Assembly (NCBI GenBank): GCA_009914755.4
Contig: CP086569.2
Location: forward strand, 11,008,001 to 11,072,000
Source of the DNA: the human T2T-CHM13v2.0 reference genome, Homo sapiens
Length of the DNA stretch: 64,000 nt
Direction: 5' to 3'
Part shown: piece by piece, positions 22,686-64,000 of the stretch
Numbering within the stretch: position 1 is the first letter of the stretch
Layout: each line of letters opens with the position of its first letter
Position numbers and translations under genes: made by a program
Notes under the pieces: model-generated
Database searches by the model: none
Told to the model about the DNA's origin: nothing
Seen by the model: only the letters and a program-made list of their open reading frames with translations

Positions 22686-22765
22686 CCTTTATTTTGACGG
22701 GATCTCACTCTGTCACCCAGACAGGAATGCAGTGGCCCAATGTTAGCTCACATTTCATTTCACCA
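22686..22765 (-). mobile_element. Alu-derived fragment module, copy 42
   Basis: GGGATCTCACTCTGTCACCCAGACAGGAATGCAGTGGCCCAATGTTAGCTCAC. Confidence 0.8.
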
Positions 22766-23571: not shown

Positions 23572-23650
23572 CTTCATTTCGACTGGATCTCACTTTGTCA
23601 CCAGACTGAAGTGCAGTGGCGGAATCTTAGCTCACATTTCTATTCACCAT
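23572..23650 (-). mobile_element. Alu-derived fragment module, copy 43
   Basis: TTTCGACTGGATCTCACTTTGTCACCAGACTGAAGTGCAGTGGCGGAATCTTAGCTCAC. Confidence 0.8.
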
Positions 23651-24043
23651 TCCATTACATTCCAGTCCATTTCAGTGCATTCCATTCTACAATATTCCAT
23701 TCAATTCCACTGCACTTCGATCCACTCCACTCAACTGTGCTCCAGTCCATTCCATTCCATTCCATTCCATTCCACTCCATTCGATTACACTACATTCTCT
23801 TCCATTCCTTTTCATTTCACTCCACTGTATTCCCCTCCACTCCATTCCACTCCACTCCACTGCACTCCATGCCATTCCTTTCCATTCCACTCCTTTTCAT
23901 GATTTTCCATTCCACTCCATTCCACTCTATTCCACTCCTCTCGATTCCACTCGAATCCAGTCAACTCCACTCCTCTCAATTCCACTGCATTCCATTCCAC
24001 TCCAATCCATTACATTCCACTATACTGTATTACATTCTATTAC

Positions 24044-24120
24044 TTTATATCGAGTGATTCTCACTCTGTCACCCATACTGGAGTGCTGTGTCCAATCTTA
24101 GCTCACATTTCCTTAACCAT
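24044..24120 (-). mobile_element. Alu-derived fragment module, copy 44
   Basis: ATCGAGTGATTCTCACTCTGTCACCCATACTGGAGTGCTGTGTCCAATCTTAGCTCAC. Confidence 0.75.
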
Positions 24121-24421
24121 TCAATTGCATTCCATTCCATTCCATTCCATTTCATACCATTCCACTGCATTCCATTCCATTCCACTGCATTCCTACCCAC
24201 TCCACTGAATTCGACTCCACTCCACTCCAGTCCACTGCACTCCATTCTATTCTGTTCCATTCTGTTCCATTCCGTTATGTTCCATTCCACTCCACTCCAT
24301 TCTATTCCATTCCCATCTATTCCATTCCATTCCATTCCATTCCATTCCATTCCATTCCATTCCATTCCATTCCATTCCAATGCACACCATTACATTCCAT
24401 TCTACTCCATTCCATTCCAGT

Positions 24422-24500
24422 CTTTTATTTCGACGGGATCTCTCTCTGTCCCCAAGACAGGAGTGCAGTGGCCCAATCTTAGCTCTCATTTCATTAACCA
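24422..24500 (-). mobile_element. Alu-derived fragment module, copy 45
   Basis: TTTCGACGGGATCTCTCTCTGTCCCCAAGACAGGAGTGCAGTGGCCCAATCTTAGCTCTC. Confidence 0.75.
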
Positions 24501-25057
24501 TTCCATTCTATTCCATTCCTTTCCTTTGCATTCCTTTCCATTCCATTCTTTTGCATTATCTTCCATTCCACAGCACTCCTATCTACTCCATTCAACTCCA
24601 CTCCTCTCTTCTCTACTCTGTTCCGTTCCTTTCCACTTCATTCCATTCCATCCCATTCTACTCCATTCCATTCCATTCCATTCCACTCGACTCCATTCCA
24701 TTCCACTCCATTCCTCTCAATTTCACCCCATTCCACTTCATTCCACTCCACTCCCCTCCACTCCATTCCATTCCACTCCATTCCATTCCCCAGCACTCCA
24801 ATCCACTGCACTCAACTTCACTCCATGCCACTCCATTCCACTACATTCTATTCTACTCCATTCCACTCCACTCCATTCCATTCCACTCCATTTCACTCCA
24901 CTTCAATCCATTCCACTCTTCTCTACTCCACTTCATTAGATTCTATTCCACTCCACTCCACTCCACTCCATTCCATTCCATTCCACTCCATTGCATTCCA
25001 CTCTACTCCATTCCACTCCACTCCTTTCCATTACATTCTATTCCATGCTGTTCCATT

Positions 25058-25412: not shown

Positions 25413-26645
25413 ATTCAATTCCATTCCGTTCCATACAATTCCTTTGAATTCCATTCATTCCACTGAATTCTCATACAGTCCAATCACCTCCACTCCACTC
25501 CTCTCTGTTCCATTCCTTTCTGCTCCATTCACTTCCATTCTTTTCCATTCCATTCCACTCCAATGCATTCCATTCCACTCCATTGCACTACAGTCCACTC
25601 CAGTCCACTCCACTGCACTCCATTCCATTCCATTCAACTACATTTTGATTCACTCTCTTCAACTTTACTACACTACTCTCCACTCCACCCAAATCCACTC
25701 CATTCCCTCCACTCCACTAAAGTCTACTTCATTCAACCGCAGTCCACTCCATTCCATTCCTTTCCATTCCATTCTATTCCATTCCACTCCCCTGCAGTCC
25801 TCTCCACTCAATTCCCTTCCATTCCACTACAGTCCCCTCCTTTCCATTCCACAGCACACCAATCCCCTCCACTCAACTCTTCTCCACTCCACTTTGCTCT
25901 ACTCACTTCTGTTACTTTCCATTCCATTACATTCCATTCTTTCCATTACACCAGTCCATTCCACTGCATTCCATTCCATTCCATTCCATTCCACTGCACT
26001 CCGATCCACTCCACTCAACACCATGACACTCCATTCCACTTGAATCCATTACGCTCTGTTCCATACTATTCCATTACATACCATTCCATTCCACTGCACT
26101 CCATTCTAGTCCACTCAACTCCATTCCAATCCATTCCACGCAATTCCACTCCATTACTTTCCATTCCATTCCACACCATTCCACTCCATTCCATTCCACC
26201 CTATTCCAATCTATTCCACTCCCATCCATTCCACTCCACTCCACTCAATTCCACTCAAGTCCACTCCATTGCATTCCATTCCTTTCCATTTGACTCCACT
26301 GCATTCCGATCCACTCCACTCAACTTCAATCCATTCTACTCCACTCCACTCTGTTCCATTTGATTCCATTCCATTCAGTTCCATTCCATTCCATTCCATT
26401 CCATTCCATTCCATTCCATTTCATTCCATTTAACTCGAATCCATTCCATTCTGATCCATTCCATTCCACTCCACTCCACTGTACTCCACTGCATGCCATT
26501 CCATTACATTCAATTCCATTCCAATGCATTCTGAGCCACTCCACTCCACTCCACTCCACTCCATTCCATTCCTTTCCCTTCCATTCCGTTCCTTTCCATT
26601 CCTTTCCACTGCATTCCATTCCACTCCACTCCATTCCACTCCATT

Positions 26646-27053
26646 CCATTTCACTACATTCCATTCCATTCCACTCCACTCCATAGGACTCCACTCCTTC
26701 TATTCCATTCCAATCCACTCCATTCCATTCCATTCCAATCCAATCCACTCCATTCCGCTCCAGTCCATTCCAATCCACTCCGTTCCTCTCCAATCCACTC
26801 CAATCCACTCCATTCACTTCCATTCCACTCCACTCCATTCAACTCCATTCCATTTCACTACATTCCATTCCATTCCACTCCACTCCATAGGACTCCACTC
26901 CTTCTATTCCATTCCAATCCACTCCATTCCATTCCATTCCAATCCAATCCACTCCATTCCGCTCCAGTCCATTCCAATCCACTCCGTTCCTCTCCAATCC
27001 ACTCCAATCCACTCCATTCACTTCCATTCCACTCCATTTCATTCCATTCCATT
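26646..27053. repeat. Near-identical 204-bp tandem duplication (2 copies) inside the satellite
   Basis: CCATTTCACTACATTCC...CCATAGGACTCCACTCCTTCTATTCC...TTCACTTCCATTCCACTCC occurs at 26646-26849 and again at 26850-27053 with almost no differences. The ORF track shows identical peptides from both copies. Confidence 0.85.
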
Positions 27054-27173
27054 ACACTGTACTCAACTCCACTCCAGTCCACTCCACTCCTTTCCACTCC
27101 GCTCTACTCCGTTAGAATCCATCCAATTCCACTCCACTCCATTCCATTCCATTCTACTTCATTCCATTCAATT

Positions 27174-43980: not shown

Positions 43981-44058
43981 CTTTATTTCGACTGGATCTC
44001 ACTCTTTCACACAGACTGAAGTGCAGTGGCACAATCTTAACTCACATTACATTTCACC
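43981..44058 (-). mobile_element. Alu-derived fragment module, copy 64
   Basis: TTTCGACTGGATCTCACTCTTTCACACAGACTGAAGTGCAGTGGCACAATCTTAACTCAC. Confidence 0.8.
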
Positions 44059-45342
44059 ATTCAATTGCATTGCATTCCATTTCATTCCATTCCATTCCAC
44101 TCCACTCCACTCCATTCCATTCCATTCAATTCCATTCCATTGCATTCCATTCCAGAGAACTGCACTCTTCTCCACTCCACTCCATTCCATTCCATTGCAT
44201 TCAACTCCATTTCCATGGACTCCGATCCACTAAACTCATTTCCACTCCAGTCCATTCCACTCTTCTCCTTTCAATTCTATTCCATTCCATTCGTTTCCAT
44301 TCCATTCTATTCTGTTTCATTACATTCAATTGCATTCCATTCCATTCCATTCCATTCCATTCCTTCCTATTCCATTCCAATCCATTCCTTTCCAATTCAC
44401 TCTGTCCTACTCCATTGCATTCCTTTCCACTCCACTACATTCCATTCCATTCCACTGCATTCCATTCCATTCCACACCATTCCATTCTATTCCTTTCCAT
44501 TTTACTCCACTCCTCTGCAATCCACCCAAATCCTCTCCACTCCAAACCATTCTACTCCACTCCACTCCACACCTCTTCTCTCCATTCTTTTCCAATTTAT
44601 TCCATTCCACCTTCTTCCATTCCACTTCACTCCATTCCATTTCATTCAATTCCACTGCACTCCCATCAATTCCACTAAACTCCACGGGACTACAATCCAC
44701 TACACGCCATTTCAGTCCGTTTCTTTCCATTAAATTACATTCCATTGCATTCCACACCACTCCATTCCATTCCACTCCAGTCCACTCCGTTCCACTCCAT
44801 TCCACTCCACTCCACTCATCTCCACTCCATTGGACTCAATTCCATGCCATTCCCGTCCATTCCATTCCACTGCACTCCATTCCACTCCACTCAACTGTTT
44901 TCCACTCCACTCCACTCTACTCTGTTCCATTCCATTCCGTTGCATTCCTATCCGTTCCGTTCCATTCCACTCCACTCCATTTCACTCCCTTGATCTCCAC
45001 TCCACTCGTCTCCACTCCACTTCATTACATTCTATTCGACTACATTTCATTCCACTAAACTCCATTCCATTTCATTCTATTCTGCACCTTTCCATTCCTT
45101 TCCACTCCACTCCATTCCACTCCACACCATTCCACTCCACTCCACTTCACTCAAATCCAATCAATTCCATTCCATTCCTCTGAGTTCCATTAATTTGCAT
45201 TCCACTCCATTACATTCCTCTGCAGTTCAGTCCTTTCCCCTCCACTCCATTCCACTCCACTTCATTCCACTCCACTCCACTCCATTCCCCTCAATTCCAT
45301 TCCAACCCACACCATTCTGCTCCATTCTATTCCATTGCATTC

Positions 45343-45420
45343 ATTAATTTGACTGGATCTCACTAGGTCACCCAGACTGGAGTGCAGCAGCACAATCTCT
45401 GCTCACATTACATTTCACCA
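45343..45420 (-). mobile_element. Alu-derived fragment module, copy 65
   Basis: TTTGACTGGATCTCACTAGGTCACCCAGACTGGAGTGCAGCAGCACAATCTCTGCTCAC. Confidence 0.8.
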
Positions 45421-46793
45421 TTCCATTCCATTCCATTCCATTCCATTCCATTCCATTCCATTCCATTGCATTTAATTCCAGTCAACTCCACTCCACTCCA
45501 TTCCATTCCATTCCATTCAACTCCATTTCCGTGCACTCCTATCCACTGAAATATTTTCCACTCCACTCCATTCCACTCCACTCCTCTCCACTCCAGTACA
45601 TTCCGGTCCATTCTATTCCATTCTGATCCATTCCATTGCATTCCATTCAATTCCTTTCCATTGCCCTCCACTCCATTTCTTTCCACTCCATTCCGCTCCA
45701 CTCCATTCCACTCCATTGCATTCCATTCCTTTCCATTCCAGTGCACTGCATTCCACTCCACTTGATTCCACACCATGGCAAGCCACTCCAATTCCTGACA
45801 TTCTGTGGCGTTCCATTCCATAAATTTCCGTTCAGTTCCTTTCCATTCCACTCCATTCCATTCCTATCCTCTCCATGCTACTGCACTCCCTTAAACTCTA
45901 TTCCACTCCATTCCATTCCACTTCACTCTACTCCACCGCATTCCATTCCGATATATTCCATTCCATTGTGTTCCATTCCATTCCTCTCTCTTGGATTCCA
46001 TTCCATTCCACTCCACTCCATTCCATTCCACCTCTTTCTACTCCAATCCACTCCACCCCAATCCACTCCATTCCATTCCGTTCCTTTCCATTCACTTCCT
46101 TCCCATTTCACTCCTTTCCATTTGTCTCCAATCAATTCCACCCCACACCATTTCATGCCACATTGATCCACTTCCCTCATATTTACAGCATTCCATTCCA
46201 GTCCATTCCATTCCAATCCATTGAAATGCATTTCATTCCATTACATTCAACTCCACTCCATTCCACTCCACTGCGTTTGACTTCATTGCACTCCACTCTT
46301 CTTTCCACTCCCTGCCACTCAACTCCTCTCCACTCCACTCAATTCCATTAAACTCCACTGCATTGCATTCCTCTCCATTCCATTCCATTCCATTCCTCTC
46401 CACTCCACTCCATTCTATTCCACTCCATTCCAATCGACTCCATTCCATTCCACTCCATTCCACTCCACTCCAATCCACTCCACTCCATTCCACTCAAATC
46501 CTTTCCATTCCATTCCATTGCATTCCTTTCCTTTCCATTCCATTCCATTCCATTCATTCCACTGCACTGCGATCCACTCCACTTGACTCCACATCACTGC
46601 TAGCCACTCCACTCCACTCCATTCCATTTCGTGCCATTCTCTTCTGTTCCCTTCCATTCCACTCCATTCCATTCCACTCCACTCTATTCCACTCTACTCC
46701 ATTTCCCACCATTCCCCTCGATTCCACTCACCTCCACTCCACTCCACTGCCCTCCTCTCCACTCCATTCCATTCAGTTCCATTGCATTCCATT

Positions 46794-46873
46794 CCTTTAT
46801 TACGACTGAATATCTCCCTTTTAGGCAGACTGGAGTGCAGTGGCACAGTCTTAGCTCACATTTCATTTCACCT
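46794..46873 (-). mobile_element. Alu-derived fragment module, copy 66 (start of ~5.5-kb HOR copy 1)
   Basis: TTTATTACGACTGAATATCTCCCTTTTAGGCAGACTGGAGTGCAGTGGCACAGTCTTAGCTCAC. Confidence 0.75.
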
Positions 46874-49800
46874 TTCTATTCCATTCCATTTCACTCCACT
46901 ACACTCCATTCCATTCCATTCCATTCAATTCCATTCCAGTCCATTCCATTCCTTTCCTCTGCACTCCCAACCACTCCACTCAACTCCAATCCACTCCACT
47001 CCACTCCCTTCCGTTCCGCTCCATTCCGTTTCATTCTCTTCCATTCCATTCCATTCCATTTCATTCCACTCCACTCCATTCCAATCCACTAGATTTCTCT
47101 CCATTCCTCTCCATTCCATTAAGCTTCACTCCATTCCACTCCACTCAATTTCATTCCTCTACATTCCACTACATTCCACTCGATTCCATTCCTCTCCATT
47201 CCACACCATTTCACTCCACTCCATTCCACTCCACTCCACTCCACTCCAGTCCTTTCCCATCCATTCGATTCCATTCTGTTCCATGCCATTGCATTCTGTT
47301 CAGTTCCATTCTATTTCCCTCAACGCCATTCCATTCCACTCCATTCCAATGCACTCCACTCCATTCCACTATACTCCACTCTTCTCCACTACACTCCACT
47401 CCAGTTCATTTCACTCTTCTACACTCCTCTCCTTTCCATTCCATTCTGATCCATTCCACTCCTATCCATTCCACTGCACTCCTTTTCAATCCACTGTGAT
47501 ACACTACCCTCAACTCCACAACATTCGTTTACATTCCATTCCATTCCACTCCATTTCATTTCCACTTCATTCCACTGTACTGAATTGCACTCCACTTCGT
47601 TTCACTCCATTGCACTCCATGCTACTCCATTCTAGTTCTCTTCATTCTATTCCACTCCATTCCATTAAACTCCACTCCATTATATTCCACTCAATTCCAT
47701 TCCATTCCATTCCCTTCCAATCCATTCCATTCCATTCCATTCCATTCCATTCCATTCCATTCCATTCCATTCCATTCCTTTGTCCCATCCAGTCTATTCA
47801 ACTCCACTGCACTGCACTCCACCCCAATCCCCTCCATTGCATACCATTTCATTCCATTCCATACCAATCCATTCCACTCCTATCCATTCCACTCCAGTCC
47901 ATTTCAATCCACTGTGATACACTACCCTCAAATCCACAGCATTCCTCTCCATTCCATTTAATTCCACTCCATTTCATTTCCACTTCATTCCACTCTGCTG
48001 CATTGCACTCCACTCCGTTTCACTCCATTACACTCCATTCTACTCCATTCGAGCCCACTCCACTCTATTCCACTCCATTCCATTAAACTCTACTCCATTA
48101 CATTCCACTCAATTCCATTCCATTCCATTCCATTCCATTTGTCTGCACTCCCATCCACTCTATTCAACTCCAATCCACTCTACTCCACTCCACCCCAATC
48201 CCCTCCATTCCATTCCATTTAATTCCATTCCATTCCACTCCATTCCATTCCACTCCTATCCATTCCTCTCCACTCCATTTCACTCCACTGTTATACTCTA
48301 CCTTCAACTCCCCAGTATTCCATTACATTCTATTCCATTCCTTTCCTTTCTATTAAACTCCTTTCTGCTCCATTTCATTCCACGAAATTCTAATCGGTTC
48401 CATTCCACTCCACTCCCTGTTACTCCATTGCATTCCATTCTACTCCATTCGACTGCACTCCACTCCACTCCTTTCCGTTAAACTCCTCTCCATTCCGTTG
48501 CACTCCATTCCATCCCAGTCCACTCCAATCGACTCCATTCCATTCCACTCCATTCCAATGCACTCCACTCCATTCCACTACACTCCACTCTTCTCCACTC
48601 CACTCCACTCCATTTCATTTCACTCCTCTCCACTCCACTCCTTTCCATTCCATTCTGTTCCTTTCCACTCCTATCCTTTCTACTGCACTCCTTTTCAATC
48701 CATTGTGATACACTACCCTCAACTCCACAACATTCCTTTCCATTCCATGCCATTCCACTCCATTCCACTCCATTTCATTTCCACTTCATCCTACTCCACT
48801 GCATTGCTCTCCACTTCGTTTCACTCCATTGCACTCCATTCTACTCCATTCGAGTCTACTTCATTCTATTCCACTCCATTCCATTAAACTCCACTCCATT
48901 ATATTCCACTCAATTCCATTCCATTCCATTCCCTTCCATTCCATTCCATTCCATTCCATTCCATTCCATTCCATTCCATTCCTCTGTCCCATCCACTCTA
49001 TTCAACTCCACTGCACTCCACTCCACCCCAATCCCCTCCATTCCATTCCATTTCATTCCATTCCATTCCACTCCTATCCATTCCACTCCATTCCATTTCA
49101 CTCCACTGTTATACACTACCATCAAATACCCAGAATTCCATTCCATTCTATTATTTTCCTTTCCGTTCCACTCCTTTCCAATCCATTTCATTCCACTAAA
49201 TTCCAATCCTTACCGTTCCACTCCACTCCGTGTCACTCCTTTGCACTCCATTGTACTCCATTCGACTCCACTCCATTCCACTCCATTCCATTATACTCCA
49301 CTCCATTTCGTTGCACTCCATTCCATTCCAGTACACTCTAATCCACTCCATTCCGTTCCACTCCATTCCAATACACTTCATTCCATTCCACTTCACTCCA
49401 CTCTTCTCCTCTACACTCTACTCTGGTTCATTTCACTCCTCTCCACTATACTCCACTGCTTTCCATTCCATTCCATTCCATTCCATTCCATTCCATTCCA
49501 TTCCACTGCACTATAATCCACTCCACTTGAATCCACAACACTCCACACCACTCCACTCCATTCCATTCCATGCCATTCCTTTCCATACCGTTCCATTCCA
49601 TTTTGTTCCATTCTACTCCATTCGATTCCCCTCCACTCCCTTCAACTCCATTCCATTCCATTCCAGTCCATTCCACTCCACTCCATACCACTCCACTCCA
49701 TTCCACTCCAGTCCGTTCCCGTCCATTGCATTCCATTCTGTTCCATTCCATTGCATTCTGTTCAAATCCATTCCACTCCCCTCCACTCCATTCCATTCCA

Positions 49801-51748
49801 CTCCATTCCACTCCTTTGCACTCCACTCCATTCTACTCCATTCCATTCCATTCCATTTCATTCCATTCCATTACACTCCATTCCACTCCATTCTATTCCA
49901 CTCCATTCCATTCCACTCCTATCCATTCCACTCCATTCCATTCCACTCCTATCCATTCCACTCCACTCCATTCCAATCCACTGTCATACACTACCCATAA
50001 ATCCACAGCTTTCCATTCCATCCATTCAAATCCGCTCCATTCCACTCCATTTCATTTCCACTACATTCCACTTCACTGCATTGCACTCCACTCCGTTTCA
50101 CTCCACTGCACTCCATTCTACTTCATTCGACTCCAGGCCACTCTACTCCTCTCCATTCCATTAAACTCCACTCCATTACATTTCACTCAATTCCATTCCA
50201 TTCCTGTCCATTCCATTCCATTCCAGTCCTCTGAACTCCCATCCACTCTATTCAATTCCACTACACCCCAATCCAATCCATTCCATTCCTTTTCATTAAA
50301 TTCCATTCCACTCCATTCCATTCCACTCCTATCCATTCCACTCCACTCCATTTCACTCCACTGTGATACACTACCCTCATCTCCACAGCATTCCTTTCCA
50401 TTCCATTCCATTCCTTTCTATTCCACTCCATTTCATACCACTAAATTCCAATCTTCTCCATTCCACTCCACTCCGTTTCACTCCATTGCACTCCCTTCTA
50501 CTCCATTTGACTCCACTCCGCTCCATTCCATTAAACTCCACTCCATTCCGTTTCAATCCTTTCCATCCCATTCCATTCCAGTCCACTCCAATCCACTCCA
50601 TTCCATTCCACTACATTCCAATGCACTCCACTCCATTCCACTCCACTCTTCTCCACTACACTCCACTCCAGTTCATTTCACTCCTCTCCACTCCACTCCA
50701 CTCCTTTCCATTCCATTCTGTTCCATTCCATTTGATTCCTTTCCATTCCAATCCATTCCATTCTATTCCATTCCACTGCACTTCAGTCCACACCACTTTA
50801 CGCCACAACACTCCACAGCACTCAACTCCATTCCGTTCCGTGCCGTTTCGTTAAATAGCATTCCATTCCATTTTGTTCCATTCCACTCCCTTCCATTCCA
50901 CTCAACTCCCTTTAACTCCATTCCATTCCATTCCATTCCATTCCATTCCATTCCATTCCATTCCATTCCATTCCACCCCATTCAACTCCACTCCACTCCA
51001 ATCCATTCCATTCCATTCTGTTCCATTGCATTCCATTGCTTTCGATTCCTTCACATTCTACTCCACTGCATTCCATTCCACTTCATTCCACTGCACTCCA
51101 CTCCATCCCAATCCATTCCATTCCATTCCACTCCTTTCCATTCCTCTCAACTCCATTCAAATCCACTCCATTTCACTCCACTCTGATCCACTCCCGTCAA
51201 CTCCACCACATTCCATTCCACTCCATTTCACTCCATTTCATTCCTTTACATTCTACTACACTCCATTCCACTGCAGTCCATTTTACTCCCTTGCACTCCA
51301 TTCTACTCGATTCCACTCCACTCCACTGCATTCCAATCCATTCCATTTAATTCCACTCCTTTCCATTTCCCTCAATTCCATTCCTTTCTATTTCATTCCA
51401 CTCCACTCCACTCCATTCCACTCCATTCCAATCCATTCCCCTCCATTTCACTACATTCCACTCCACAACACTCCAGTCCACTCCACTGTATTCCCTTCCA
51501 TTCCATTCCACTCCACTTCACTCTGATCCACTCCTGTTGACTCCACAACATTCCATGAAACTTCACTGCATACCAATCCCGGCTGTTCTATTCTGTTCTG
51601 TTCCATTCCACTCCATTCAATTCCACTCCACTTTTTATCAATCCACGCCATTTCACTCCATTCCCCTCTATTCCCCTCCTCTCATATCCAATCCACTCCA
51701 CTATACTCCACTCCATTTCATTCCTTTCAGCTCCATTCCATTCCATTC

Positions 51749-51828
51749 CTTTATTTCGAATGAATCTCACTCTGTTACCCAGACTGGAGTGCAGTGTCAC
51801 AATATTAGTTCACACTTCATTTCACCTT
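51749..51828 (-). mobile_element. Alu-derived fragment module, copy 67
   Basis: TTTCGAATGAATCTCACTCTGTTACCCAGACTGGAGTGCAGTGTCACAATATTAGTTCAC. Confidence 0.8.
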
Positions 51829-52328
51829 TCCATTTCATTCCATTCCATTCCATTCCATTCCATTCCATTCCATTCCATTTCATTCCATTCCATTCCATTC
51901 CACTCCATTCCATTCCATTGCACTCCGATCCGATATAGTCCACTCCACTCCACTCCATTCCATTAAAATTCCCTCCATTGCTTTCCATTCCATTTCATTC
52001 CATTCCATTCCAATCCACTCCACTCTATTCTTTTCCACTCCATTCCCCTCCAGTGCTCTCCACTCCACTCAGCTCCTTTACGTTCCATTCTATTCCACTG
52101 CACTCTGTTCCACTCCACTTGGCTCCACACCACTGTCCGTCACTCCACTCCATTCCATTCAATGCCATTCCCTTCCATTCCATTCCATTCTACTCCACTG
52201 CATTCCCGTCCACTCCCTTCCATTCCACTCCACTCCATTTCACTCCATTACCCTCTAATTCATCCCCTCCACCCCATTCCACTGCCCTCCACTCCACTCA
52301 ATTACATTCAGCTCCATTCCATTCCATT

Positions 52329-52408
52329 CCTTTATTACGACCGAATCTCTCCCTTCCACGCAGACTGGAGTGCGGTGGCACAATCTTAGCTCTCATTTCA
52401 TTTCACAA
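52329..52408 (-). mobile_element. Alu-derived fragment module, copy 68 (HOR-equivalent of copy 66)
   Basis: TTTATTACGACCGAATCTCTCCCTTCCACGCAGACTGGAGTGCGGTGGCACAATCTTAGCTCTC; it shares the unusual TTACGAC junction and a CCCTT insertion with copy 66. Confidence 0.75.
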
Positions 52409-55400
52409 TTCCATTCCATTCCATTCCATTCCATTCCATTCCATTCCATTCCATTCCATTCCATTCCTCTGCACTCCCATCCACTCTACTCAACTCCAAT
52501 CCACTCCACTCCATTCCCTTCCATTCTACTCCATTCCGTTTCATTTTCTTCCATTCCATTCCATTCCATTGCATTCCACTCCACTCCATTCCAATCCACT
52601 AGATTTCTCTCCGTTCCTCTCCATTCCATTGAACTTCACTCCATTCCACTCCACTCAATTTCATTCCACTACATTCCACTTCATTCCATTCCACTCCATT
52701 CCTCACCATTCTACTCCACTCCATTCGACTCCACTCCACTCCAGTCCATTCCCATCCATTCTATTCCATTCTGTTCCACTCCATTGCATTCTCTTCAGTT
52801 CCATTCCATTCCCCTCAACTCCATTCCATTCCACTCCATTCTACTCCTCTGCACTCCACTCCACTCTACTCCATTCTATTCCATTCCATTTCATTCCATT
52901 CAATTCCAATCCATTCCACTCCATTCCATTCCACTCCTATCCATTCCACTCCACTCTATTTCAATCCACTGTGATACACTACCCTCAAATCCACAGCATT
53001 CCTTTCCGTTCCATTCCATTCCACTCCATTCCACTCCATTTCATTTCCACTTCATTCGACTCTGCTGCATTTCACTCCACTCCGTTTCACTCCATTACAA
53101 CCCATTCTACTCCATTCGAGTCCACTCCACTCTATTCCACTCCATTCCATTAAAATCCACTCCATTCCATTCCACTTAATTCCATTCGTTTCCATTCCGT
53201 TCCATTCCATTCCATTCCTCTGCATTCCCATCCGCTATATTCAACACCACTCCACTCCACTTCACCCCAATCCCCTCCATTCCATTCCATTTCATTTCCT
53301 TCCATTCCACTCCATTCCACTCCATTCCATTCCACTCCTATCCGTTCCACTCCACTCCATTTCACTCCATTGTTATACACTACTCTCAACTCCCCAGAAT
53401 TCCATTCCATTCTATTCCATTCCTTTCCTTTCCATTCCACTCCATTTCACTCCATTTCATTCCACTAAATTGCAATCCATTCCATTCCACTCCACTCCGT
53501 GTCATTCCGTTGCATTCCATTCTACTCCATTCGACTCTACTCCACTCTACTCCATTCCATTAAACTCCACTCCATTCCATTGCACTCCATTCCATTCCAG
53601 TCCACTCCAATCCACTCCATTCCATTCCACTCATTCCAATGCACTCCACTCCATTCCACTCCACTCCACTCCTCCACTCCACTCCAGTTCATTTAAATCC
53701 TCTCCACTCCACTCCACTCCTTTCCATTCCATTCTCTTCCATTCCATTACATTCAATTCCATACCATACCATTCCATTCCACTGCATTCTAAAATACTCC
53801 ACTTGTCTCCACAACACTCCACGCCACTCCACTCCATTCCATTCCGTGCCATTCCATTTCATACCTTTCCATTCCATTTTGATCCGTTCCAATCCATTCG
53901 ATTCCACTCCACTATATTCTAATCCACTCCTTTTAACTCCATTCCATTCCATTCCAGTCCATTCCTCTCCAATCCATTCCACTCCACTCCATTCCACTCC
54001 TGTCCATTCCCATCCATTCCATTCTGTTGCATTGTGTTCAATTCCATTCCATTCCTCTCCACTCCATTCCATTCCACTACATTCCACTCCTTTGCACTCC
54101 ACTCTACTCCACTCTACTCCATTCCATTCCATTCCATTCCATTCCATTCCAGTCCATTCCACTCCATTCCATTCCACTCCTATCCGTTCCACTCCACTCC
54201 ATTTCAATCCACTGTTATAAGCTACCCTCAAATCCACAGCATTCCATTCTATCCATTGCATTCCACTCCGTTGCACTCCATTTCATTTCTACTACATTCC
54301 ACTCCACTGCATTGCACTCCACTCCGTTTCACTCCATTGCACTCCATTCTACTCCATTCGACTCCACTCCACTCTACTCCTCTCCATTCCATTGAACTCC
54401 TCTCCATTCCATTCCACTCAATTTCATTCCATTCCAGTCCATTCCTCTACACTCCCATCCACTCTATTCAACTCCACTCCACTCCACCGCAATCCAATCC
54501 ATTCCATTCCATTTCATTAAATTCCATTCCACTCCATTCCACTCCATTCCATTCCATTCCACTCCACTCCATTTCACTCCACTGTGATACACTACCCTCA
54601 ACTCCACAGCATTGCTTTCCATTCCATTCCTTTCCTTTCCATTCCACTCCATTCCACTCCACTCCATTCCCATCCACTCCATTCCACTCCAGTCCATTCC
54701 AATCCGTTCCATTCCATTGTATTCCATTCCATTCCGTTCGATTCCATTCCATTATATTCCACTCCATTCCATTCCACTCCACTCCACTCCAATCCATTCC
54801 ATTCCATTCCACTCCTTTCCATTCCTCGCAACTCCATTCAACTCCACTCCATTTCACTCCACTCTGATCCACTCCCATCAACTCCACCACATTGCCTTTC
54901 AGTCCATTACATTCCACTCCATTCCACTCCATTTCATTCCTTTTTATTCTACTACACTCCATTCCACTCCAGTCCATTTCACTCCATTGCACTCCATTCT
55001 ACTCAATTCCACAGCACTCCACTGCATTCCAATCCATTCCATTTAATTCCACTCCTTTCCATTCCCCTCAGTTCCATTTCTTTCCATTTCCTTCCACTCC
55101 ATTCCACTCCACTCCACTTCACTCCATTCCATTCAATTCCCCTCCATTTCACCCCGTTCCACTCCATAACACTCCACTCTACTCCAACTTATTGCATTCT
55201 ATTCAATTCCTCTCCACTTCACTCTGATCTGCTCCTCTTGACTCCACAACACTCCAAGCCACTCCACTCCATACCATTCCCTGCCGTTGCATTCTGTTCT
55301 GTTCCATTCCACTCCATTCAATTCCAGTCCACTTTTTTATCACTCCACGCCATTTCACTCCATTCCCCTCGATTCCACTCCTCTCTAATCCACTCCAGTC

Positions 55401-55448
55401 CACTATACTCCACTCTATTTTATTCCTTTCAGCTGCATTTCATTCCAT

Positions 55449-55528
55449 TCCTTTATTTCGAATGAATCTTACTCTGTCATCCAGACTGGAGTGCAGTGGC
55501 ACAATCTTAGCTCACGTTTCATTTCACC
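55449..55528 (-). mobile_element. Alu-derived fragment module, copy 69
   Basis: TTTCGAATGAATCTTACTCTGTCATCCAGACTGGAGTGCAGTGGCACAATCTTAGCTCAC. Confidence 0.8.
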
Positions 55529-56683
55529 TTTCCATTCCATTCCATTCCTTTCCATTCCATTCCATTCCATTCCCTTCCATTCCATTCCATTCCATTCCAT
55601 TCCATTCCATTCCCTTCCATTCCATTCCATTCCATTCCATTATATTCCATTCCTTTCCACTCCATTCCATTCAATTCCTTTCCATTCCATTCCTTTACTT
55701 TCCATTGCACTGCACTCCGATCCAATCCACTTCACTCCACACCACTCCACGCCAATCCACTTCCTTCTGTTCCGTGCCATTTCGTTCCATAACCTTCCGT
55801 TCCGTTCCGTTCCATTTCACGCCATTCCATTCCACTCCATTCCATTCTACTCCACTGCCTTAAACTCCATTACAATCCATTCCACTCCACTCCTTTCGAC
55901 ACCACTCCACTTCAGTCCGTTCAGATCCGTTCCACTCCATTCTGTTCCATTCCAGTCCATTCCATTCCATTCCACTCCATTCCACTCCTTTCCACTCCAC
56001 TTCACTTCACTCAATTCCATTTGATTACAACCCATTCTATTCCATTTTACTCCATTCCACTCCATTCGATTCCTCTCTTCTCCATTCCACTCAACTCCAT
56101 TTCATTCCAATTTTATCCACTCCCTTCAAATACACAGTATTCCCTTCCCTTCCATTCCATTTCATTCCACTCCATTCCACTCGATTTCACTTCATTACCT
56201 TCCACCCCACTCCTTTCCACACCACTCCATTTTTCTCCATTGCACTCCTTTCTTCTCCATTCCACTGCACTCCAATCCACTCCACTCCATTCAGTTAAAT
56301 TCCATTCCACTCCACTCCACTTCATTTCATTCCACTACATTCCACGCTACTACACTCAATTCCATTTGATTCCACTCCACTGGACTCCACTCATCTCCTT
56401 TCCATTCCATTCCATTCCATTCCATTCCGTTCCATTCTATTACATTCCATTCCACTGCACTCCGATGCACTCCACTTGACTCCACACCACTCCACCCCAC
56501 TCCACTGCAGTGCGTTCCACGCATTTCTGTTCCATTCCTTTCCATTCCACTCCATTTCATTCCACTCCACTCCATTCCACTCCACTCCATTTCACTCGTT
56601 TCCCGTCGATTCCACTACTGTCTACTCCACTCCGCTGCAAACCACTCCACTCCATTCCATTCAGTTCCATTCTATTCCATTTC

Positions 56684-56760
56684 TTAATTTCGACTGAATC
56701 TGACTCTGTCACCCAGACTGGAGTGCAGTGGCACAATCTTAGCTCACATTCCATTTCACC
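56684..56760 (-). mobile_element. Alu-derived fragment module, copy 70
   Basis: TTTCGACTGAATCTGACTCTGTCACCCAGACTGGAGTGCAGTGGCACAATCTTAGCTCAC. Confidence 0.85.
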
Positions 56761-59272
56761 TTTCCATTCCATTTCATTCCACTCCTCTCCATTCCATTCC
56801 TTTTCATTCCATTCCACTCCATTCCACTGCACTCCGATCCACTCCACTCAACTCCCCTCCACTTCACTCCACTCAAATCCATTCCATTCCACTCTACTCC
56901 ATTCTAATCCACTAGATTTCTCACCATTTCACTCTATTCCACTCCACTCCACTGCACTTCACTCCACTCCACTCCATTCCATTCCACTCCATTCCACTCC
57001 ATTCCATTCCACTCCATTCCTATCCATTCCACTTCACTCCACTCCATTCCAGCCCGTTCTGGTACTTTCCATTCCATTGTGTTCCATTCCATTGCATTCC
57101 CTTTGATTACATTCCTTTAAACTCCACTCTATTTCTTTACACGCCATTTCACTCCACTCCACTCACCTCCACTCCATTTAATTCCATTCAATTCCATTCC
57201 ATACCATACTTTCCATTCCATTCCATATCTTTCCATTCCATTCCGCTCCATTCCACTCCATTCCATCCTACTCCAATCCATTCCAATCCACTCTACTTCA
57301 CTCCACTCTGAAAAATTCCCCTCAACGCCACAGGATTCCAATCCATTCCATTCCATTCCACTCCACTCCATTCCGTTTCACTCCATTGCTCTCCATTCTA
57401 CTCCATTCCACTCCACTCCACTCCTCTCCATTCCATTAAACTCCATTCCATTCCTTTCCCCTCCTTTCCTTTCCATTCCATTCCATTCCACTCCACTCAA
57501 CTCCAGTCTTTTCCACTCCATTTCACTCCACTCCACTCCACTAGTTTCCATTCCATTCCATTCCATTATACATTACTCCAATCCACTCCACTTGACTCCA
57601 CACCACTCCTCACCGTTCCACTCCATTCGCATCCGTGCCATTCCATTCCATACCTTTACGTTCCATTCTGTTCAATTCCACTCCATTCCATTCTCCTTCC
57701 CTCCATTCTACTCCATTCCCTTTAACTCCATTCCACTCCATTCCATTCCACTCCGTTCCCCTCCACTCCACTCCACTCCAGTCCATTTTGATCTGTTTCA
57801 TTCCATTCTGTTCCATTCCATTCCATTCTGTTTATTTCCTTTCCATTCCATTCCACTCCATTCCACTCCACTCTTCTCCATTCCACTCCATTCTACTGCA
57901 CTCCACTCCAATCTGCTCCACTCCACTCCTTTCCATTCCATTCCATTTCATTGCATTCCATTCCATTCCATTCCATTCCGTTCCATTCCATTCCATTCCA
58001 TTCCACAGCACTCCTATCCCCTCCACTTGACTCCACACCAGTCCATGCCACTCCACTGTATTTCATTCCATGACATTCGGTTCCATATCGTTCTGTTCCA
58101 TTCCGTTCCAATCCACTCCATTCCATTGCACTCCAATCCATTCTCCTCCACTTCATTTAATTCCATTCCACTCCATTCCACCTCATTAGACTCCACGCCA
58201 CTCCACTATATTCCATTCCATTCCGTTCCACTCCATTCAATTCCATTCCATTTCACGGCACTCCACTCCATTTCACTCTACTGCAATCCACTCCACTTCA
58301 TTCCACTCTTCTCCACTCCAGCCCCCTCCATTCTATTCTTCTCCACTCCATTCCATTCCTTTCCAATTCACTCAATTCATCTCCATTCCACTAAATGCCA
58401 TTCCTGTGCATTACATTCCACTCCAATCCACCTCACTCCACTACATTTCACTCCATTCTCCTCCATTACAATCCTCGACATTCCATTCCAGTCAACTCCC
58501 CTCCTTTCCATTCAGCTCCAGTCCACATCATTGCTTTCCTTTCCATTTCATTCCATTCCGTTCCATTCCATTCCATTCCATTTCACTCGATGCCATTCCA
58601 TTCCACTCTGCTCCATTGCATTAAACTAAACTCCACTTCACTCCACTCCACTCCACTCAATTCCATTGCATTCCATTCACTTCCACTCCACTCCAGTCCA
58701 TTTCATTCCACTGCATTCCATTCCATTGTATTGTATTCCTTTCCATTCCAATCAAATCCACTCCTCTCCACTCTGTTTTGTTCCATTCCATTCCGTTCCA
58801 TCCCATTCCATTCCTTTCCACTCCACTCTATTCTATTCCACTCCATTCCACTCCATTTCACTCCATTCCACTCCACTCCATTCCGTTTCATTGCTTTCCA
58901 TCCAACTGCACTCTGATCCTCTCCACTCAACTCCACTCCAGTCCACTCCACTACACTCCATGCCATTCCATTGCACTCCTTTCCCCTCTATTCGAGTACA
59001 CTCCACTCCTCTCCATTCCATCCACTCCATTCCACTCCATTACACTCCACTCCATTCCACTCCACTGCTCTCCATTCCCATCCATTCTTTTCCATTCCAC
59101 TGTATTCCATTCCATTCCATTCCATTCCATTCTACTCCATTACAATCTATTCCACTCCACTCCATTCCACTCCAATCCATTCGACTCCCACCCAATCCAT
59201 TCCACTCCATTGCACTCCATTCCATTCCTCTCAACTTCATTCCATTCCATTCTACCCTATTCCCTTCCATTC

Positions 59273-59352
59273 CTTTATTTTAACTGGATATCGCTGGGTC
59301 TCCTAGACTGGAGTGCAGTGGCACAATTTTAGCTCACATTTGCTTTTACCAT
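59273..59352 (-). mobile_element. Alu-derived fragment module, copy 71
   Basis: TGGATATCGCTGGGTCTCCTAGACTGGAGTGCAGTGGCACAATTTTAGCTCAC. Confidence 0.75.
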
Positions 59353-61078: not shown

Positions 61079-62051
61079 CCACTGCATTCCATTCCATTCC
61101 ATTCCTTTCTATTGTTTTGCATTCCATTCAATTCCATTCCCCTCAGCTCAACTGCGCTGCTCTCCATACCACTCCTTTCCATTAAATTCCATACCACTCC
61201 ACTCCTTTGCACTCCACTCCATTCCAATCAACTCCACTCCATTCAACTCCAATCCACTCAAATCCACTCCATTCCACGCCACTGCACTTCATTCTATTAT
61301 GTTCCATTCCTTTCCGTTCCTTTCCTTTCCATTCCTTTCCTTTCCATTCCATTCCACTCTATTCCATTCCATTCCACTCCACTCCAATCCACACCACAAT
61401 ACTGCATTCCATTCCATTTCATTCCATTCCACCTCACTCCAATCCCCTCCACTCAACTCCAGTCCACTATACTCTGTTCCATTCCATTCTGTTCCATTCC
61501 GTTCCATGCCATTCCTCTCCATTCCTTTCCACTCCATTCCACTCCAATCTATTTCACAAAATTCCACTCCATTCCACTCTGCTCCACTCAACTCCACTCC
61601 TTTTCATTCCATTCCATTCCATTCCATTCCCCTCTATTCCATTCCATTCCACTCCAAGCTACTACATTTCATTCCAGTCCACTCCACTCCATTCCACCCC
61701 ACTGAACTCCTTTCCATTCCATTCCATTCCATTCCATTCCATTCCATTCCATTCCATTCCGTTCCACTACACTCCAATCCACTGCAGTCAATTGTGTTCC
61801 ACTCCATTCCATTCAATTTTTTTCCACTCCCATCCACTCCATTCAACTCCACTCCATTACACTCCACTCCACTCCACTCCATTCCATTCCACTCCATTCC
61901 GTTCCACTCCTTTCCTGTCCACTCCATTCCACTCCATTCCACTGCACTCCATTCCACTTCACTCGTCTCCTTTCCACTCCAATCGATTCCGCTCCATTGC
62001 ATTCCACTCAACTCCATTCCATTCCATTGTATTCCATTCGTTCCATTCTTC

Positions 62052-62128
62052 CATTTTGAGAGGATCTCACTCTGTCTTCCAGACTGGATTGCAGTGGCTA
62101 AATCTTAGCTCACATTTCATTTCACCAT
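62052..62128 (-). mobile_element. Alu-derived fragment module, copy 75
   Basis: GAGAGGATCTCACTCTGTCTTCCAGACTGGATTGCAGTGGCTAAATCTTAGCTCAC. Confidence 0.8.
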
Positions 62129-62723
62129 TCCATTCCATTCCATTTCATTCCATTCGACTCCACTTCACTTCACTCCACTCCAATCCACTGCACTCCATTC
62201 CACTCTAATCCATTCCATTCCATCCCATTATATTTCACTCCTCTGCGATCCACTCCACTCAACTCCATTCCAGGCCACTTCACTCCTTTCAGTTCCTTGC
62301 CATTCCTTTCCATTCCATTCCACTTCACACCACTCCACTCAACTGCACTCCACTACACTCCATTTCGTTCCATTACACTGACCTCTGACCTAATTGAGTC
62401 AACTCCACTCCAGTCCTCTCCAATCCATTCCATTGCATTCCATTCCATTCCCTTCCTTTCCGTTCCATTCCTCTCCATTCCATTCCACTGCATTCCTTTA
62501 CACTGCACTCCAATTCACTCCATTCAACTCCATTCCACTCCACTCCACTCAATTCCACTCCAATCCGTTCAATTAGACTCCATTCCATTCAACTCCTTTC
62601 CATTCCATTCTACTCCACTCCATTCCACTCCACTCCATTCCACTCCACTGAACTCCATTCTTCTCCATTCCATTCCACTCCACTCCATTCCATTCCACTC
62701 TATTCCATTCGTTTAAATTCCGT

Positions 62724-62797
62724 TATTTCTACTTGATACAACTGTGCTACACAGACTGGAGTGTGGTGGCACAATCTCAGCATAGATTTCATTACAC
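62724..62797 (-). mobile_element. Alu-derived fragment module, copy 76 (5' part diverged), 10 bp upstream of the L1 insertion
   Basis: CAACTGTGCTACACAGACTGGAGTGTGGTGGCACAATCTCAGCATAG. Confidence 0.6.
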
Positions 62798-62807
62798 CAT
62801 TCCATTC

Positions 62808-62820
62808 TTTTTTTTTTTTT
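62808..62820 (-). other. L1 poly(A) tail (T13 on plus strand) marking the 3' insertion junction
   Basis: ccattc|ttttttttttttt|attatactct; satellite pentamers lie immediately upstream and the L1 3'UTR terminus immediately downstream. Confidence 0.9.
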
Positions 62821-63025
62821 ATTATACTCTAAGTTTTAGGGTACATGTGCACATTGTGCAGGTTAGTTACATATGTATACATGTGCCATGCTGGTGCGCT
62901 GCACCCACTAATGTGTCATCTAGCATTAGGTATATCTCCCAATGCTATCCCTCCCCCCTCCCCCGACCCCACCACAGTCCCCAGAGTGTGATATTCCCCT
63001 TCCTGTGTCCATGTGATCTCATTGT
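62821..63025 (-). other. L1 3' UTR (~205 nt)
   Basis: It lies between the ORF2 TGA stop (reverse complement of tca at 63026-63028) and the poly(A) tract. Its length and sequence match the L1 3'UTR, including the G-rich GGGGAGGGGGGAGGG tract. Confidence 0.9.

Positions 63026-64000
<975 letters not shown>

What the first reader, a model, noticed from the sequence alone, without database searches (positions are those of the whole stretch)
46794..57000. Distinct sub-domain: ~5.5-kb higher-order repeat containing nested ~400-bp A/B sub-repeats, with few Alu modules
Between about 46.9 and 55.4 kb the Alu-module density drops from one per roughly 0.5 kb to one per roughly 3-5 kb. A non-pentamer anchor motif (CACTGTGATACACTACCCTCAA..TCCACAGCATTCC, plus a B variant ending CCCAGAATTCC) recurs at about 370-420 bp steps, sometimes at about 840-870 bp where a unit is missing. 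The segment after Alu copy 66 (46874-47450) is closely matched by the segment after Alu copy 68 (52408-52960) at a 5.53-kb offset. Both of these Alu copies share the unusual TTACGAC junction and a CCCTT insertion. The motif CCACTAGATTTCTC recurs at 47090, 52600 and 56911. This looks like a different HSat3 subfamily block or higher-order-repeat organisation spliced into the surrounding Alu-dense array. The second HOR copy appears shortened and rearranged.
Basis: seen in the sequence. Interest (0 to 1): 0.5.

Follow-up and report, generated by a model that had tools for sequence, protein, structure and literature searches.

The report
Local tandem duplication inside Alu-bearing pentamer satellite
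Inside an old human-type (CATTC)n satellite studded with Alu fragments, a ~400-bp Alu-free stretch was copied many times and the resulting block was then duplicated once, which is the ordinary way such satellites grow.

Summary
Between 46.5 and 55.7 kb lie the ten best self-alignments of the whole window (81-89% identity). Nearest-paralogue identity is 87-91% there and 80-84% elsewhere. The window's two longest Alu-free gaps, 4,954 and 3,122 bp, are also there.

The block is two adjacent, colinear copies of one segment:
- Copy 1 (46548-52082, 5,535 bp): Alu, alpha, A A B A B C A B C D, Alu.
- Copy 2 (52083-~55621, ~3.5 kb): Alu, alpha', A B C A X D', Alu.

The units are ~380-430 bp and fall into four types, not two. 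An A-B-C trimer of ~1.25 kb is the most regular higher period.

The copies differ by three indels of about one or two units (~478, ~818 and ~545 bp). There are no inversions or reorderings.

It is not a multi-copy 5.5-kb HOR, and it is not a foreign subfamily. Pentamer make-up, CpG and GC match the flanks, and older relatives of the units lie at 46.2, 31.9, 13.7 and 57.8 kb.

The best explanation is unequal exchange in ~400-bp register inside one ~1.4-kb Alu-bearing period, followed by one segmental tandem duplication. This is an ordinary nested tandem repeat of a known kind. Interest is low.

The parts
46548..52082 (+). Copy 1 of the duplicated segment (5,535 bp). Order: Alu module, alpha, A A B A B C A B C D, Alu module, beta.
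   Evidence: Self-BLAST chain with offsets 5535, 5057, 4264/4231 and 3686. Tile map.
52083..55621 (+). Copy 2, shortened to ~3.54 kb. Order: Alu module, alpha', A B C A X D', Alu module.
   Evidence: The collapsed flanks of the two copies are 90% identical over 1,206 bp.
46783..46890 (+). Alu-fragment module with its pentamer flanks, the TTACGAC variant. The module is the antisense Alu 3' end, ~64 nt.
   Evidence: nhmmer 93 bits. The module consensus matches the antisense Alu 3' end at 50/64 positions. TTTATTACGAC occurs only here and at 52331.
52317..52425 (+). Alu-fragment module, paralogue of the one at 46783 (offset 5,534-5,535 bp).
   Evidence: The two are 86% identical, against a median of 75% to other modules.
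51737..51844 (+). Alu-fragment module closing copy 1.
   Evidence: 90.7% identical to the module at 55439.
55439..55546 (+). Alu-fragment module closing copy 2, paralogue of the one at 51737 (offset 3,702 bp).
46891..47491 (+). Segment alpha, made of partial units. Contains CCACTAGATTTCTC at 47086.
   Evidence: 90% identical to alpha'. Motif position.
52426..52966 (+). Segment alpha'. Contains CCACTAGATTTCTC at 52596.
47492..48285 (+). Units A1 (47492-47909) and A2 (47910-48285).
   Evidence: Exact anchors. A1 to A3 is 95% and A2 to A5 is 93%.
48286..48700 (+). Unit B1.
   Evidence: B-type anchor CACTGTTATAC..CCCCAGTATTCC. 85-88% identical to the other B units.
48701..51179 (+). Two consecutive A-B-C trimers. 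First: A3 48701, B2 49104, C1 ~49560. Second: A4 49979, B3 50359, C2 50781.
   Evidence: Unit identity matrix and alignment. Lag peak at 1200-1250 bp.
51180..51560 (+). Unit D, the last unit before the Alu module.
   Evidence: 90% identical to D' at 54861.
52967..54579 (+). Copy-2 units A5 (52967), B4 (53368), C3 (~53830) and A6 (54210).
54580..54860 (+). Unit X, a 281-bp B/C hybrid marking a ~545-bp deletion made in unit register.
   Evidence: The offset switches from 4231 to 3686 within it. It is 84-89% identical to A/B units and 86% to C2.
54861..55250 (+). Unit D'.
46164..46560 (+). Older relative of the unit, lying just upstream of the block.
   Evidence: Unit HMM 237 bits over model positions 6-389. 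77-84% identical to the block's units.

Best explanation
The window is an old, poorly homogenised pentameric satellite of the (CATTC)n/(CACTC)n type, i.e. HSat3-like. It carries about 76 copies of a ~64-nt antisense Alu 3' fragment as part of its repeat.

The flagged interval is the youngest local amplification inside that array. It probably arose in four steps.
1. Within one ~1.4-kb Alu-bearing period (Alu, alpha, unit, tail), an Alu-free ~400-bp unit was multiplied by unequal sister-chromatid or homologue exchange, or by replication slippage, in unit register. The copies diverged into types A, B and C, partly organised as an A-B-C trimer of ~1.25 kb.
2. The whole expanded period was duplicated once in tandem. 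The junction is at 52082/52083.
3. Further misaligned exchanges of about one or two units added or removed ~478, ~818 and ~545 bp. This left copy 1 at 5,535 bp and copy 2 at ~3,540 bp. Unit X is the B/C hybrid left by one such exchange.
4. A ~630-bp patch (47326-47954 against 48535-49148, A1/A3 95% identical) is the most recent exchange or conversion.

Alu density is low simply because the amplified unit carries no Alu.

What is shown: the anatomy, the colinearity and the identity hierarchy. What is inferred: the order of events and the exchange mechanism.

No function specific to the block is indicated. It would behave like the rest of the array, as constitutive heterochromatin. Its density of CATTCC (TEAD-type) sites is the same as in the flanks.
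For: Array context:
- TRF finds period 5, consensus CCATT, 66% matches.
- All 78 Alu-module hits are on the + strand.
- The module consensus aligns to the antisense Alu 3' end at 50/64 positions, local score 76 against 19 in the other orientation.

The block is the youngest part of the window:
- The ten best self-alignments of the window all lie in 46.5-55.6 kb.
- Nearest-paralogue identity is 87-91% there against 80-84% background.

The two copies are colinear:
- The offset chain runs 5535, 5057, 4264/4231, 3686.
- Alpha and alpha' are 90% identical, against at most 84% for 73 controls.
- The collapsed flanks are 90% identical over 1,206 bp.
- The paired Alu modules share derived characters.

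Unit types and identity hierarchy:
- Same type in different copies: 88-93%.
- Same type within a copy: mostly 85-90%.
- A1/A3: 95%.
- Different types: 73-85%.

Lag peaks fall at multiples of ~400-420 bp.

The origin is local:
- Composition is identical to the flanks.
- Older unit relatives sit in the flanks.
- The upstream Alu modules are spaced 1405, 1359 and 1453 bp.
- The upstream period 45330-46782 matches the collapsed block at 80-82%, against 72-78% for most controls.
- The A-type anchor is absent, even allowing 2 mismatches, from 322 kb of paralogous Alu-bearing satellite contigs. It is also absent from the metagenome collection as an exact 22-mer.

Literature (kind already described):
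- HSat3 blocks intermingled with Alu fragments, without local homogenisation (10.1101/2022.12.01.518724).
- Nested tandem repeats in HSat2,3 (10.1101/2021.07.12.452052).
- Domain and higher-order structure in GAATG arrays (PMC2588610).
Against: - The similarity of the upstream ~1.4-kb period to the collapsed block is modest. It is 80-82%, and two other Alu-anchored segments (at 32465 and 56671) score about as well.
- The order of events is not uniquely determined. Copy 1 may have gained units, or copy 2 may have lost them.
- Identities of 83-93% between the copies mean that conversion with other diverged units could have blurred the history.
- The genomic location and the state in other haplotypes or species could not be examined.
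Confidence: 0.8

Rival explanations
1. This is a block of a different HSat3 subfamily with its own ~5.5-kb higher-order repeat, spliced into the Alu-dense array. It would have arrived, for example, by exchange between arrays on different chromosomes.
For: - The block is sharply more self-similar than its surroundings.
- It is Alu-poor.
- Its anchor variant is private to the block within the window.
Against: - Composition is indistinguishable from the flanks.
- Both copies begin and end with the array's own Alu module.
- Older relatives of the units and of alpha lie in the flanks.
- There are only two copies, and the supposed third is at background identity.
- The anchor is absent from 322 kb of paralogous contigs.
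- None of the 14 subfamily marker 24-mers occurs in the block or in the flanks.
Confidence: 0.08
2. Assembly artefact. The apparent duplication and the unit-number differences come from mis-joining or false expansion of reads in a repetitive region.
For: Satellites are error-prone to assemble. No read data could be examined here.
Against: - The copies differ at 7-17% of positions and by structured indels of about one or two units. Assembly errors produce near-identical duplications or collapses, not old diverged paralogues.
- An independent metagenome contig reproduces another part of the window at 99.6%.
Confidence: 0.03
3. There was no segmental duplication. The two 'copies' are two neighbouring ancestral Alu-bearing periods. 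Each amplified its ~400-bp unit independently, and the two were then partly homogenised by gene conversion.
For: - Upstream periods of ~1.4 kb are already weakly similar to each other, at 77-79%.
- A conversion-like patch exists at 47326-47954 against 48535-49148.
Against: - The order of unit types is shared and colinear across >3 kb. This includes rare shared characters in both flanking Alu pairs and in alpha.
- Identity is roughly uniform, at 88-93% for the best-matching pairs of every unit type. That fits one duplication better than many independent conversions.
Confidence: 0.09

Closest known systems
HSat3 arrays intermingled with Alu fragments, on the human Y and acrocentric short arms (Rhie et al., T2T-Y, 10.1101/2022.12.01.518724)
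   Same: - A pentameric CATTC-derived satellite with short Alu fragments recurring as part of the array.
- The fragments are old and not locally homogenised. Median module-to-module identity here is ~75-80%.
   Different: - The chromosome and the subfamily of this window could not be determined.
- The paper does not describe this ~400-bp unit family or this duplication.
Nested tandem repeats (NTRs) of HSat2,3 (Altemose et al. 2022, 10.1101/2021.07.12.452052). Examples are the 3.6-kb DYZ1 unit and the 1.77-kb chr1 HSat2 unit.
   Same: Longer repeat units of inconsistent length, nested in a satellite that derives from a simple pentamer.
   Different: Classical NTR arrays have hundreds to thousands of homogeneous copies. 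Here there are ~16 units of ~400 bp at 73-95% identity, and two copies of the large segment.
Alpha-satellite-type higher-order repeats, and the HOR or domain structure reported in GAATG arrays (Warburton et al. 2008, PMC2588610; e.g. 3,360- and 5,630-bp HORs in Yq11.1)
   Same: - Distinct unit types recur in a fixed order (A-B-C).
- Same-type units are more alike than neighbouring units.
   Different: - Only three trimers exist, and not all of them are adjacent.
- Trimer copies are 85-92% alike, not ≥95%.
- Unit lengths vary from 370 to ~500 bp.
- There is no evidence that this is the Yq11.1 array.
'GAATG/GAGTG' satellite III, group II of Bandyopadhyay et al. 2001 as cited in PMC2588610
   Same: A mixed CATTC and CACTC pentamer content, at 28% and 20% of 5-mer classes.
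   Different: The original paper could not be read here, so its defining criteria were not checked.

Membership tests
Human satellite 3 (HSat3) | Derived from tandem (CATTC)n / (GGAAT)n pentamers | tested here: met
   - TRF finds period 5, consensus CCATT, over 44057-59273.
- The ATTCC rotation class makes up 23-31% of 5-mers and ACTCC 14-22%.
- (CCAYT) runs of at least 2 repeats cover 36% of the sequence.
Human satellite 3 (HSat3) | Interspersed 10-mer A(T/C)TCGGGTTG. This is the classical satellite 3 definition as I recall it from Prosser et al. 1986. It is seen in the HSat3B marker 24-mers of PMC4022460. | tested here: not met
   CGGGTTG and CAACCCG each occur 0 times in 64 kb. The feature is not universal among HSat3 subfamilies, so this argues only against the B-type subfamilies.
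Human satellite 3 (HSat3), subfamilies A1-A6 and B1-B5 | Presence of subfamily-specific 24-mers (Altemose 2014) | tested here: inconclusive
   - The most common specific 24-mer of each of the 14 subfamilies has 0 exact hits. With 1 mismatch there are 3 at most.
- The full list held is cut off within HSat2A1, so thousands of markers were not tested.
Human satellite 3 (HSat3) | Pericentromeric, acrocentric short-arm or Yq location in the human genome | not testable with these tools
   - No human reference was available.
- Human origin is supported indirectly. The L1 3' end at 62.8-64 kb encodes ORF2p residues 952-1275 with 322/324 identity to human L1.
- More than 120 metagenome contigs carry the same Alu-satellite junction.
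Higher-order repeat (strict, alpha-satellite sense) | Discrete monomers of similar length in a fixed order, repeated many times. Copies of the multimer are far more alike than the monomers within it. | tested here: not met
   - For the 5.5-kb unit there are two copies only, of 5,535 and ~3,540 bp. A third is at background identity.
- For the A-B-C trimer there are three copies, 85-92% alike, against 73-85% between unit types. This is HOR-like but rudimentary.
Nested tandem repeat (NTR, Altemose et al. 2022) | Repeat units longer than the basic motif, of inconsistent size, nested in a simple-repeat-derived satellite | tested here: met
   - Units of 281-~500 bp carry non-pentamer landmarks.
- Lag peaks fall at multiples of ~400-420 bp and are 4-17 times the control mean.
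Alu-derived module | Sequence homology to an Alu element | tested here: met
   - The module consensus aligns to the reverse complement of the AluY consensus over 64 nt with 50 matches. It covers the last ~57 nt plus the start of the A tail.
- Most differences are at CpG sites.
- Rfam gave no hit, as expected for so short a fragment.
Tandem segmental duplication | Two adjacent, same-strand, colinear copies with a single junction | tested here: met
   - The offset chain decreases monotonically from 5535 to 3686 and all matches are on the + strand.
- The junction is at 52082/52083.
- No inverted matches were sought beyond the + strand BLAST, but all Alu modules are on the + strand.

The most novel reading that the evidence does not exclude
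The block is a snapshot of the birth of a higher-order or nested repeat out of an old, unhomogenised Alu-bearing HSat3-like array. It would be a private A-B-C trimer (~1.25 kb) caught after only three rounds, plus one segmental duplication. If so, its unit number should be polymorphic between human haplotypes, and it would be a unique marker for this array.
Probability: 0.25. Interest if true: 0.3.

Novelty: new member of a known kind. Interest (0 to 1): 0.12.

Why it matters
It matters little beyond bookkeeping.
- It shows that the array is not uniform. It contains a younger, locus-specific amplification whose private landmarks could anchor reads or probes in an otherwise hard-to-map satellite. 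Examples are CACTGTGATACACTACCCTCAA and TTTATTACGAC.
- It gives a clean small example of how exchange in unit register builds and then erodes long-period structure in HSat3-like DNA.
- It does not point to a new element, gene or mechanism.

Tried and rejected
- Subfamily typing with 24-mers. Only the 14 top markers were available, and none matched. The stored supplement stops within HSat2A1.
- Exact-pattern scans for the anchor in metagenome and prokaryote-genome collections gave 0 hits. The Alu-junction 21-mer gave 0 hits in genome contigs but at least 120 metagenome contigs.
  - Only one of those contigs, L089, comes from this locus, and it covers a different part of the window.
  - Coverage of the locus in that collection is therefore sparse, and the absence of the anchor there is weak evidence.
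- Rfam scan of 45-58 kb: no family matched.
- Pfam on the L1 ORF2 C-terminus: no family matched. The PDB sequence search identified it instead.
- A loose version of the anchor motif matched 275 sites and proved uninformative.
- The unit HMM matches generic pentamer satellite everywhere at 60-190 bits. Only hits above ~190 bits that include model positions 1-30 are specific.
- A third copy at 56.4-58.6 kb was considered and rejected, because it aligns at 77-78%, the background level.
- The older literature could not be read: Bandyopadhyay 2001, Choo 1990 and 1992, Jarmuz 2007.
- Absolute dating from divergence was not attempted. Mutation and conversion rates in such satellites are uncertain.


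Full report
**What the window is**

On the + strand the sequence reads as diverged CCATT/CCACT pentamers.
- Tandem Repeats Finder reports one array of period 5 with consensus CCATT and 66% matches over 44057-59273.
- GC skew is about -0.8 throughout, until ~62.8 kb.
- The CATTC and CACTC rotation classes make up about 28% and 20% of all 5-mers.
- Scattered through the array is a short non-satellite module. An nhmmer profile built from its copies finds 78 hits, all on the + strand.
- The module consensus is TTTATTTCGACTGGATCTCACTCTGTCACCCAGACTGGAGTGCAGTGGCACAATCTTAGCTCAC.
Most differences are at CpG sites.
- Apart from these modules, the only other non-satellite DNA is an L1 at the window's end.

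From 62806 the satellite is interrupted by a poly-T run and an antisense L1 3' end.
- Its minus-strand frame encodes 324 residues without a stop.
- These are 322/324 identical to residues 952-1275 of human L1 ORF2p.

A metagenome contig (L089) is 99.6% identical to 61605-62819. At least 119 further metagenome contigs carry the same Alu-satellite junction in paralogous satellite that is only ~72% similar.

[quoted passage not shown] The chromosome could not be determined here.

**Checking the observation**

- *Alu density.* Modules are spaced 520 bp on average in the first 25.5 kb, ~1.2 kb in 25.5-46.8 kb and ~1.0 kb after 55.5 kb. Between the modules at 46783 and 55439 there are only two (51737, 52317). 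This gives the two largest gaps in the window, 4,954 and 3,122 bp.
- *Anchor motif.* The 22-mer anchor has 13 matches at up to 3 mismatches, against none in 100 shuffles. Eleven of them lie in 47492-54580, at steps of 370-418 bp or 842-875 bp.
- *TTACGAC junction.* TTTATTACGAC occurs only at 46796 and 52331.
- *Third motif.* CCACTAGATTTCTC occurs exactly at 47086, 52596 and 56909.
- *5.53-kb match.* The segment after the first Alu is 90% identical to the segment after the third. Segments after the other 73 modules give 76-78% on average and at most 84%.
- *Correction.* The 'CCCTT insertion' is a run of shared substitutions, not an indel.

**How distinct the sub-domain is**

- In a self-BLAST of the whole window, the ten highest-scoring alignments all fall within 46.5-55.6 kb, at 81-89% identity over 0.6-1.4 kb.
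- For 200-bp tiles, the best non-self match averages 87-91% identity in 47-55.9 kb and 80-84% in most of the window. There are weaker rises at 16-23 kb and at 26 kb.
- The density of shared 14-mers as a function of lag shows peaks at ~400, 800-825, 1200-1225, 2050, 3000, 3675-3700, 4200-4275, 5050-5075, 5475-5500 and 6300 bp. These are 4-17 times the mean of ten control stretches.
- The peaks are essentially multiples of a ~400-420-bp unit. The 5.5-kb lag is one peak among many.

**Anatomy**

Slicing at the anchors and aligning the pieces resolves four unit types.

| Type | Starts | Identity within type |
|---|---|---|
| A | 47492, 47910, 48701, 49979, 52967, 54210 | 85-95% |
| B | 48286, 49104, 50359, 53368 | 85-89% |
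| C | ~49560, 50781, ~53830 | 81-92% |
| D | 51180, 54861 | 90% |

- C units have no anchor but keep the terminal landmark CACTCCTATCC...CATTTCAATC.
- Units of different types are 73-85% alike.

The order of elements is as follows.
- Copy 1 (46548-52082): Alu46783, alpha, A A B A B C A B C D, Alu51737, beta.
- Copy 2 (52083-~55621): Alu52317, alpha', A B C A X D', Alu55439.
- X (54580-54860, 281 bp) is a B/C hybrid.

The BLAST chain between the copies is colinear, and its offset falls stepwise.
- 46548-47733 matches at offset 5535.
- 47853-48667 matches at offset 5057.
- 49037-50604 matches at offsets 4264/4231.
- 50931-51919 matches at offset 3686.
- So three indels of ~478, ~818 and ~545 bp, each about one or two units long, separate the copies.
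- No inversion or change of order is seen.

If the variable unit run is removed, the remaining flanks of the two copies are 90% identical over 1,206 bp. The paired Alu modules are each other's close relatives. Modules 46783 and 52317 are 86% identical and share the TTACGAC, CTCCCTT and GCAG characters. Modules 51737 and 55439 are 91% identical.

The most similar pair of all is A1/A3, at 95%. It sits within a ~630-bp patch, 47326-47954 against 48535-49148. This is younger than the split between the two copies.

A suggested third copy beginning at 56.4 kb aligns to copies 1 and 2 at 77-78%, which is background level. The exceptions are ~450 bp around its Alu (83%) and the exact 14-mer at 56909.

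**Local or imported?**

The evidence points to a local origin.
- 5-mer class frequencies, coverage by perfect CCATT runs, CpG per kb, GC content and CATTCC density in the block are all within the range of the flanks.
- Weaker relatives of the unit lie just upstream at 46164-46560 (237 bits, 77-84% identity) and at 31934, 13697 and 57760.
- D-type units, the unit at 46164 and the unit at 31934 all sit 530-620 bp upstream of an Alu module. They therefore look like positional homologues.
- The three Alu-to-Alu periods immediately upstream measure 1405, 1359 and 1453 bp. This is about the length of Alu + alpha + one unit + tail.
- The nearest such period (45330-46782) matches the collapsed copies at 80-82%, against 72-78% for most Alu-anchored controls. 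Segments at 32465 and 56671 score similarly, so this support is modest.
- The A-type anchor is absent, even at 2 mismatches, from 322 kb of paralogous Alu-bearing satellite contigs. It is also absent as an exact 22-mer from the metagenome and prokaryote-genome collections. Coverage of this locus in those collections is thin, so this is weak evidence.

I therefore read the block as a local amplification of an Alu-free unit inside one Alu-bearing period, not as a foreign subfamily.

**Mechanism**

*Shown:* two colinear tandem copies, a family of ~400-bp units of four types, and indels in unit register. The identity hierarchy runs A1/A3 (95%), then between-copy counterparts (88-93%), then within-copy same-type units (85-90%), then different types (73-85%), then the array background.

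*Inferred:* repeated unequal exchange or replication slippage in ~400-bp register created the unit run and an A-B-C trimer. One tandem segmental duplication then copied the whole expanded period. Later misaligned exchanges changed the unit numbers, and X is the hybrid product of one of them. A final short exchange or conversion produced the 95-96% patch. The low Alu density follows from the fact that the amplified unit has no Alu.

This is the standard model of satellite evolution. It corresponds to the 'nested tandem repeats' described for HSat2,3 (10.1101/2021.07.12.452052) and to the domain or HOR structure seen in GAATG arrays (PMC2588610).

No function specific to the block is suggested. 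HSat3 in general is constitutive heterochromatin and offers dense TEAD- and HSF1-type sites (PMC11526998). The density of CATTCC sites here equals that of the flanks.

**Comparison with known families and novelty**

- The array meets the basic HSat3 criterion of pentamer derivation.
- It lacks the ATTCGGGTTG-type 10-mer entirely.
- It matches none of the 14 top subfamily marker 24-mers. The full marker list was not available, so subfamily membership is undetermined.
- As a 5.5-kb HOR the block fails the definition, because there are two unequal copies. As an A-B-C HOR it is rudimentary. As an NTR-type local structure it qualifies.
- The kind is known. This particular unit family is probably undescribed but unremarkable.
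- I rate it a new member of a known kind, with low interest.

**Limits**

- No human or ape reference, no reads and no population data were available.
- The Alu consensus and the L1-Ta diagnostic rest on my memory.
- The order of the events is not uniquely resolved.

Noticed in passing
window 62806-64000: - A poly-T run is followed by an antisense L1 3' end.
- The minus strand encodes 324 residues without a stop. They are 322/324 identical to human L1 ORF2p residues 952-1275.
- The 3' UTR reads GATGACACATTAGTGGG. As I recall, this is the 'ACA' diagnostic of the human-specific L1HS-Ta subfamily.
- This is a very young L1 inserted into the old satellite. Whether it is full-length is unknown, because the window ends.
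   Followed up: partly
L089 (Ga0115856_106425) 1-1220, against window 61605-62819: A JGI metagenome contig is 99.6% identical to the distal end of the array and stops in the L1 poly-T. This is host DNA in a metagenome assembly. At least 119 other metagenome contigs carry paralogous Alu-bearing satellite at ~72% overall identity.
   Followed up: partly
window 9027-10447, 16391-17906, 23905-24839: There is an older long-range periodicity of ~7.4-7.5 kb in the Alu-dense part. Three colinear stretches are 78-79% identical, at offsets 7364/7448 and 7512.
   Followed up: no
window 16478-18928 against 21758-24085: Another old duplication of ~5.1-5.3 kb offset, at 81-82% identity, lies in the Alu-dense part. 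It coincides with the secondary rise in nearest-paralogue identity at 16-23 kb.
   Followed up: no
window 26338-27090: A short local tandem repeat of ~210-bp period, at 86% identity over ~550 bp. It explains the identity peak at 26 kb.
   Followed up: no
window 4642-4779 and 5502-5642: Two Alu modules are internally duplicated. Model positions 1-78 are followed directly by positions 44-110, with core motifs 31 bp apart. The two sites lie ~860 bp apart, so this variant module was itself copied.
   Followed up: no
window 42566, 43971, 45330, 46783: The four Alu modules just upstream of the block are evenly spaced at 1405, 1359 and 1453 bp. This suggests a ~1.4-kb Alu-bearing period there. The periods are only 77-79% alike.
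   Followed up: partly
whole window: A landmark of the type CACTSYGATCCACTCCACTCAA lies ~85-120 bp downstream of many Alu cores across the array. The sub-domain's anchor, CACTGTGATACACTACCCTCAA, looks like a derived variant of it. In 12 paralogous metagenome contigs the variant CACTCTGATACACTCCACTCAA recurs.
   Followed up: partly
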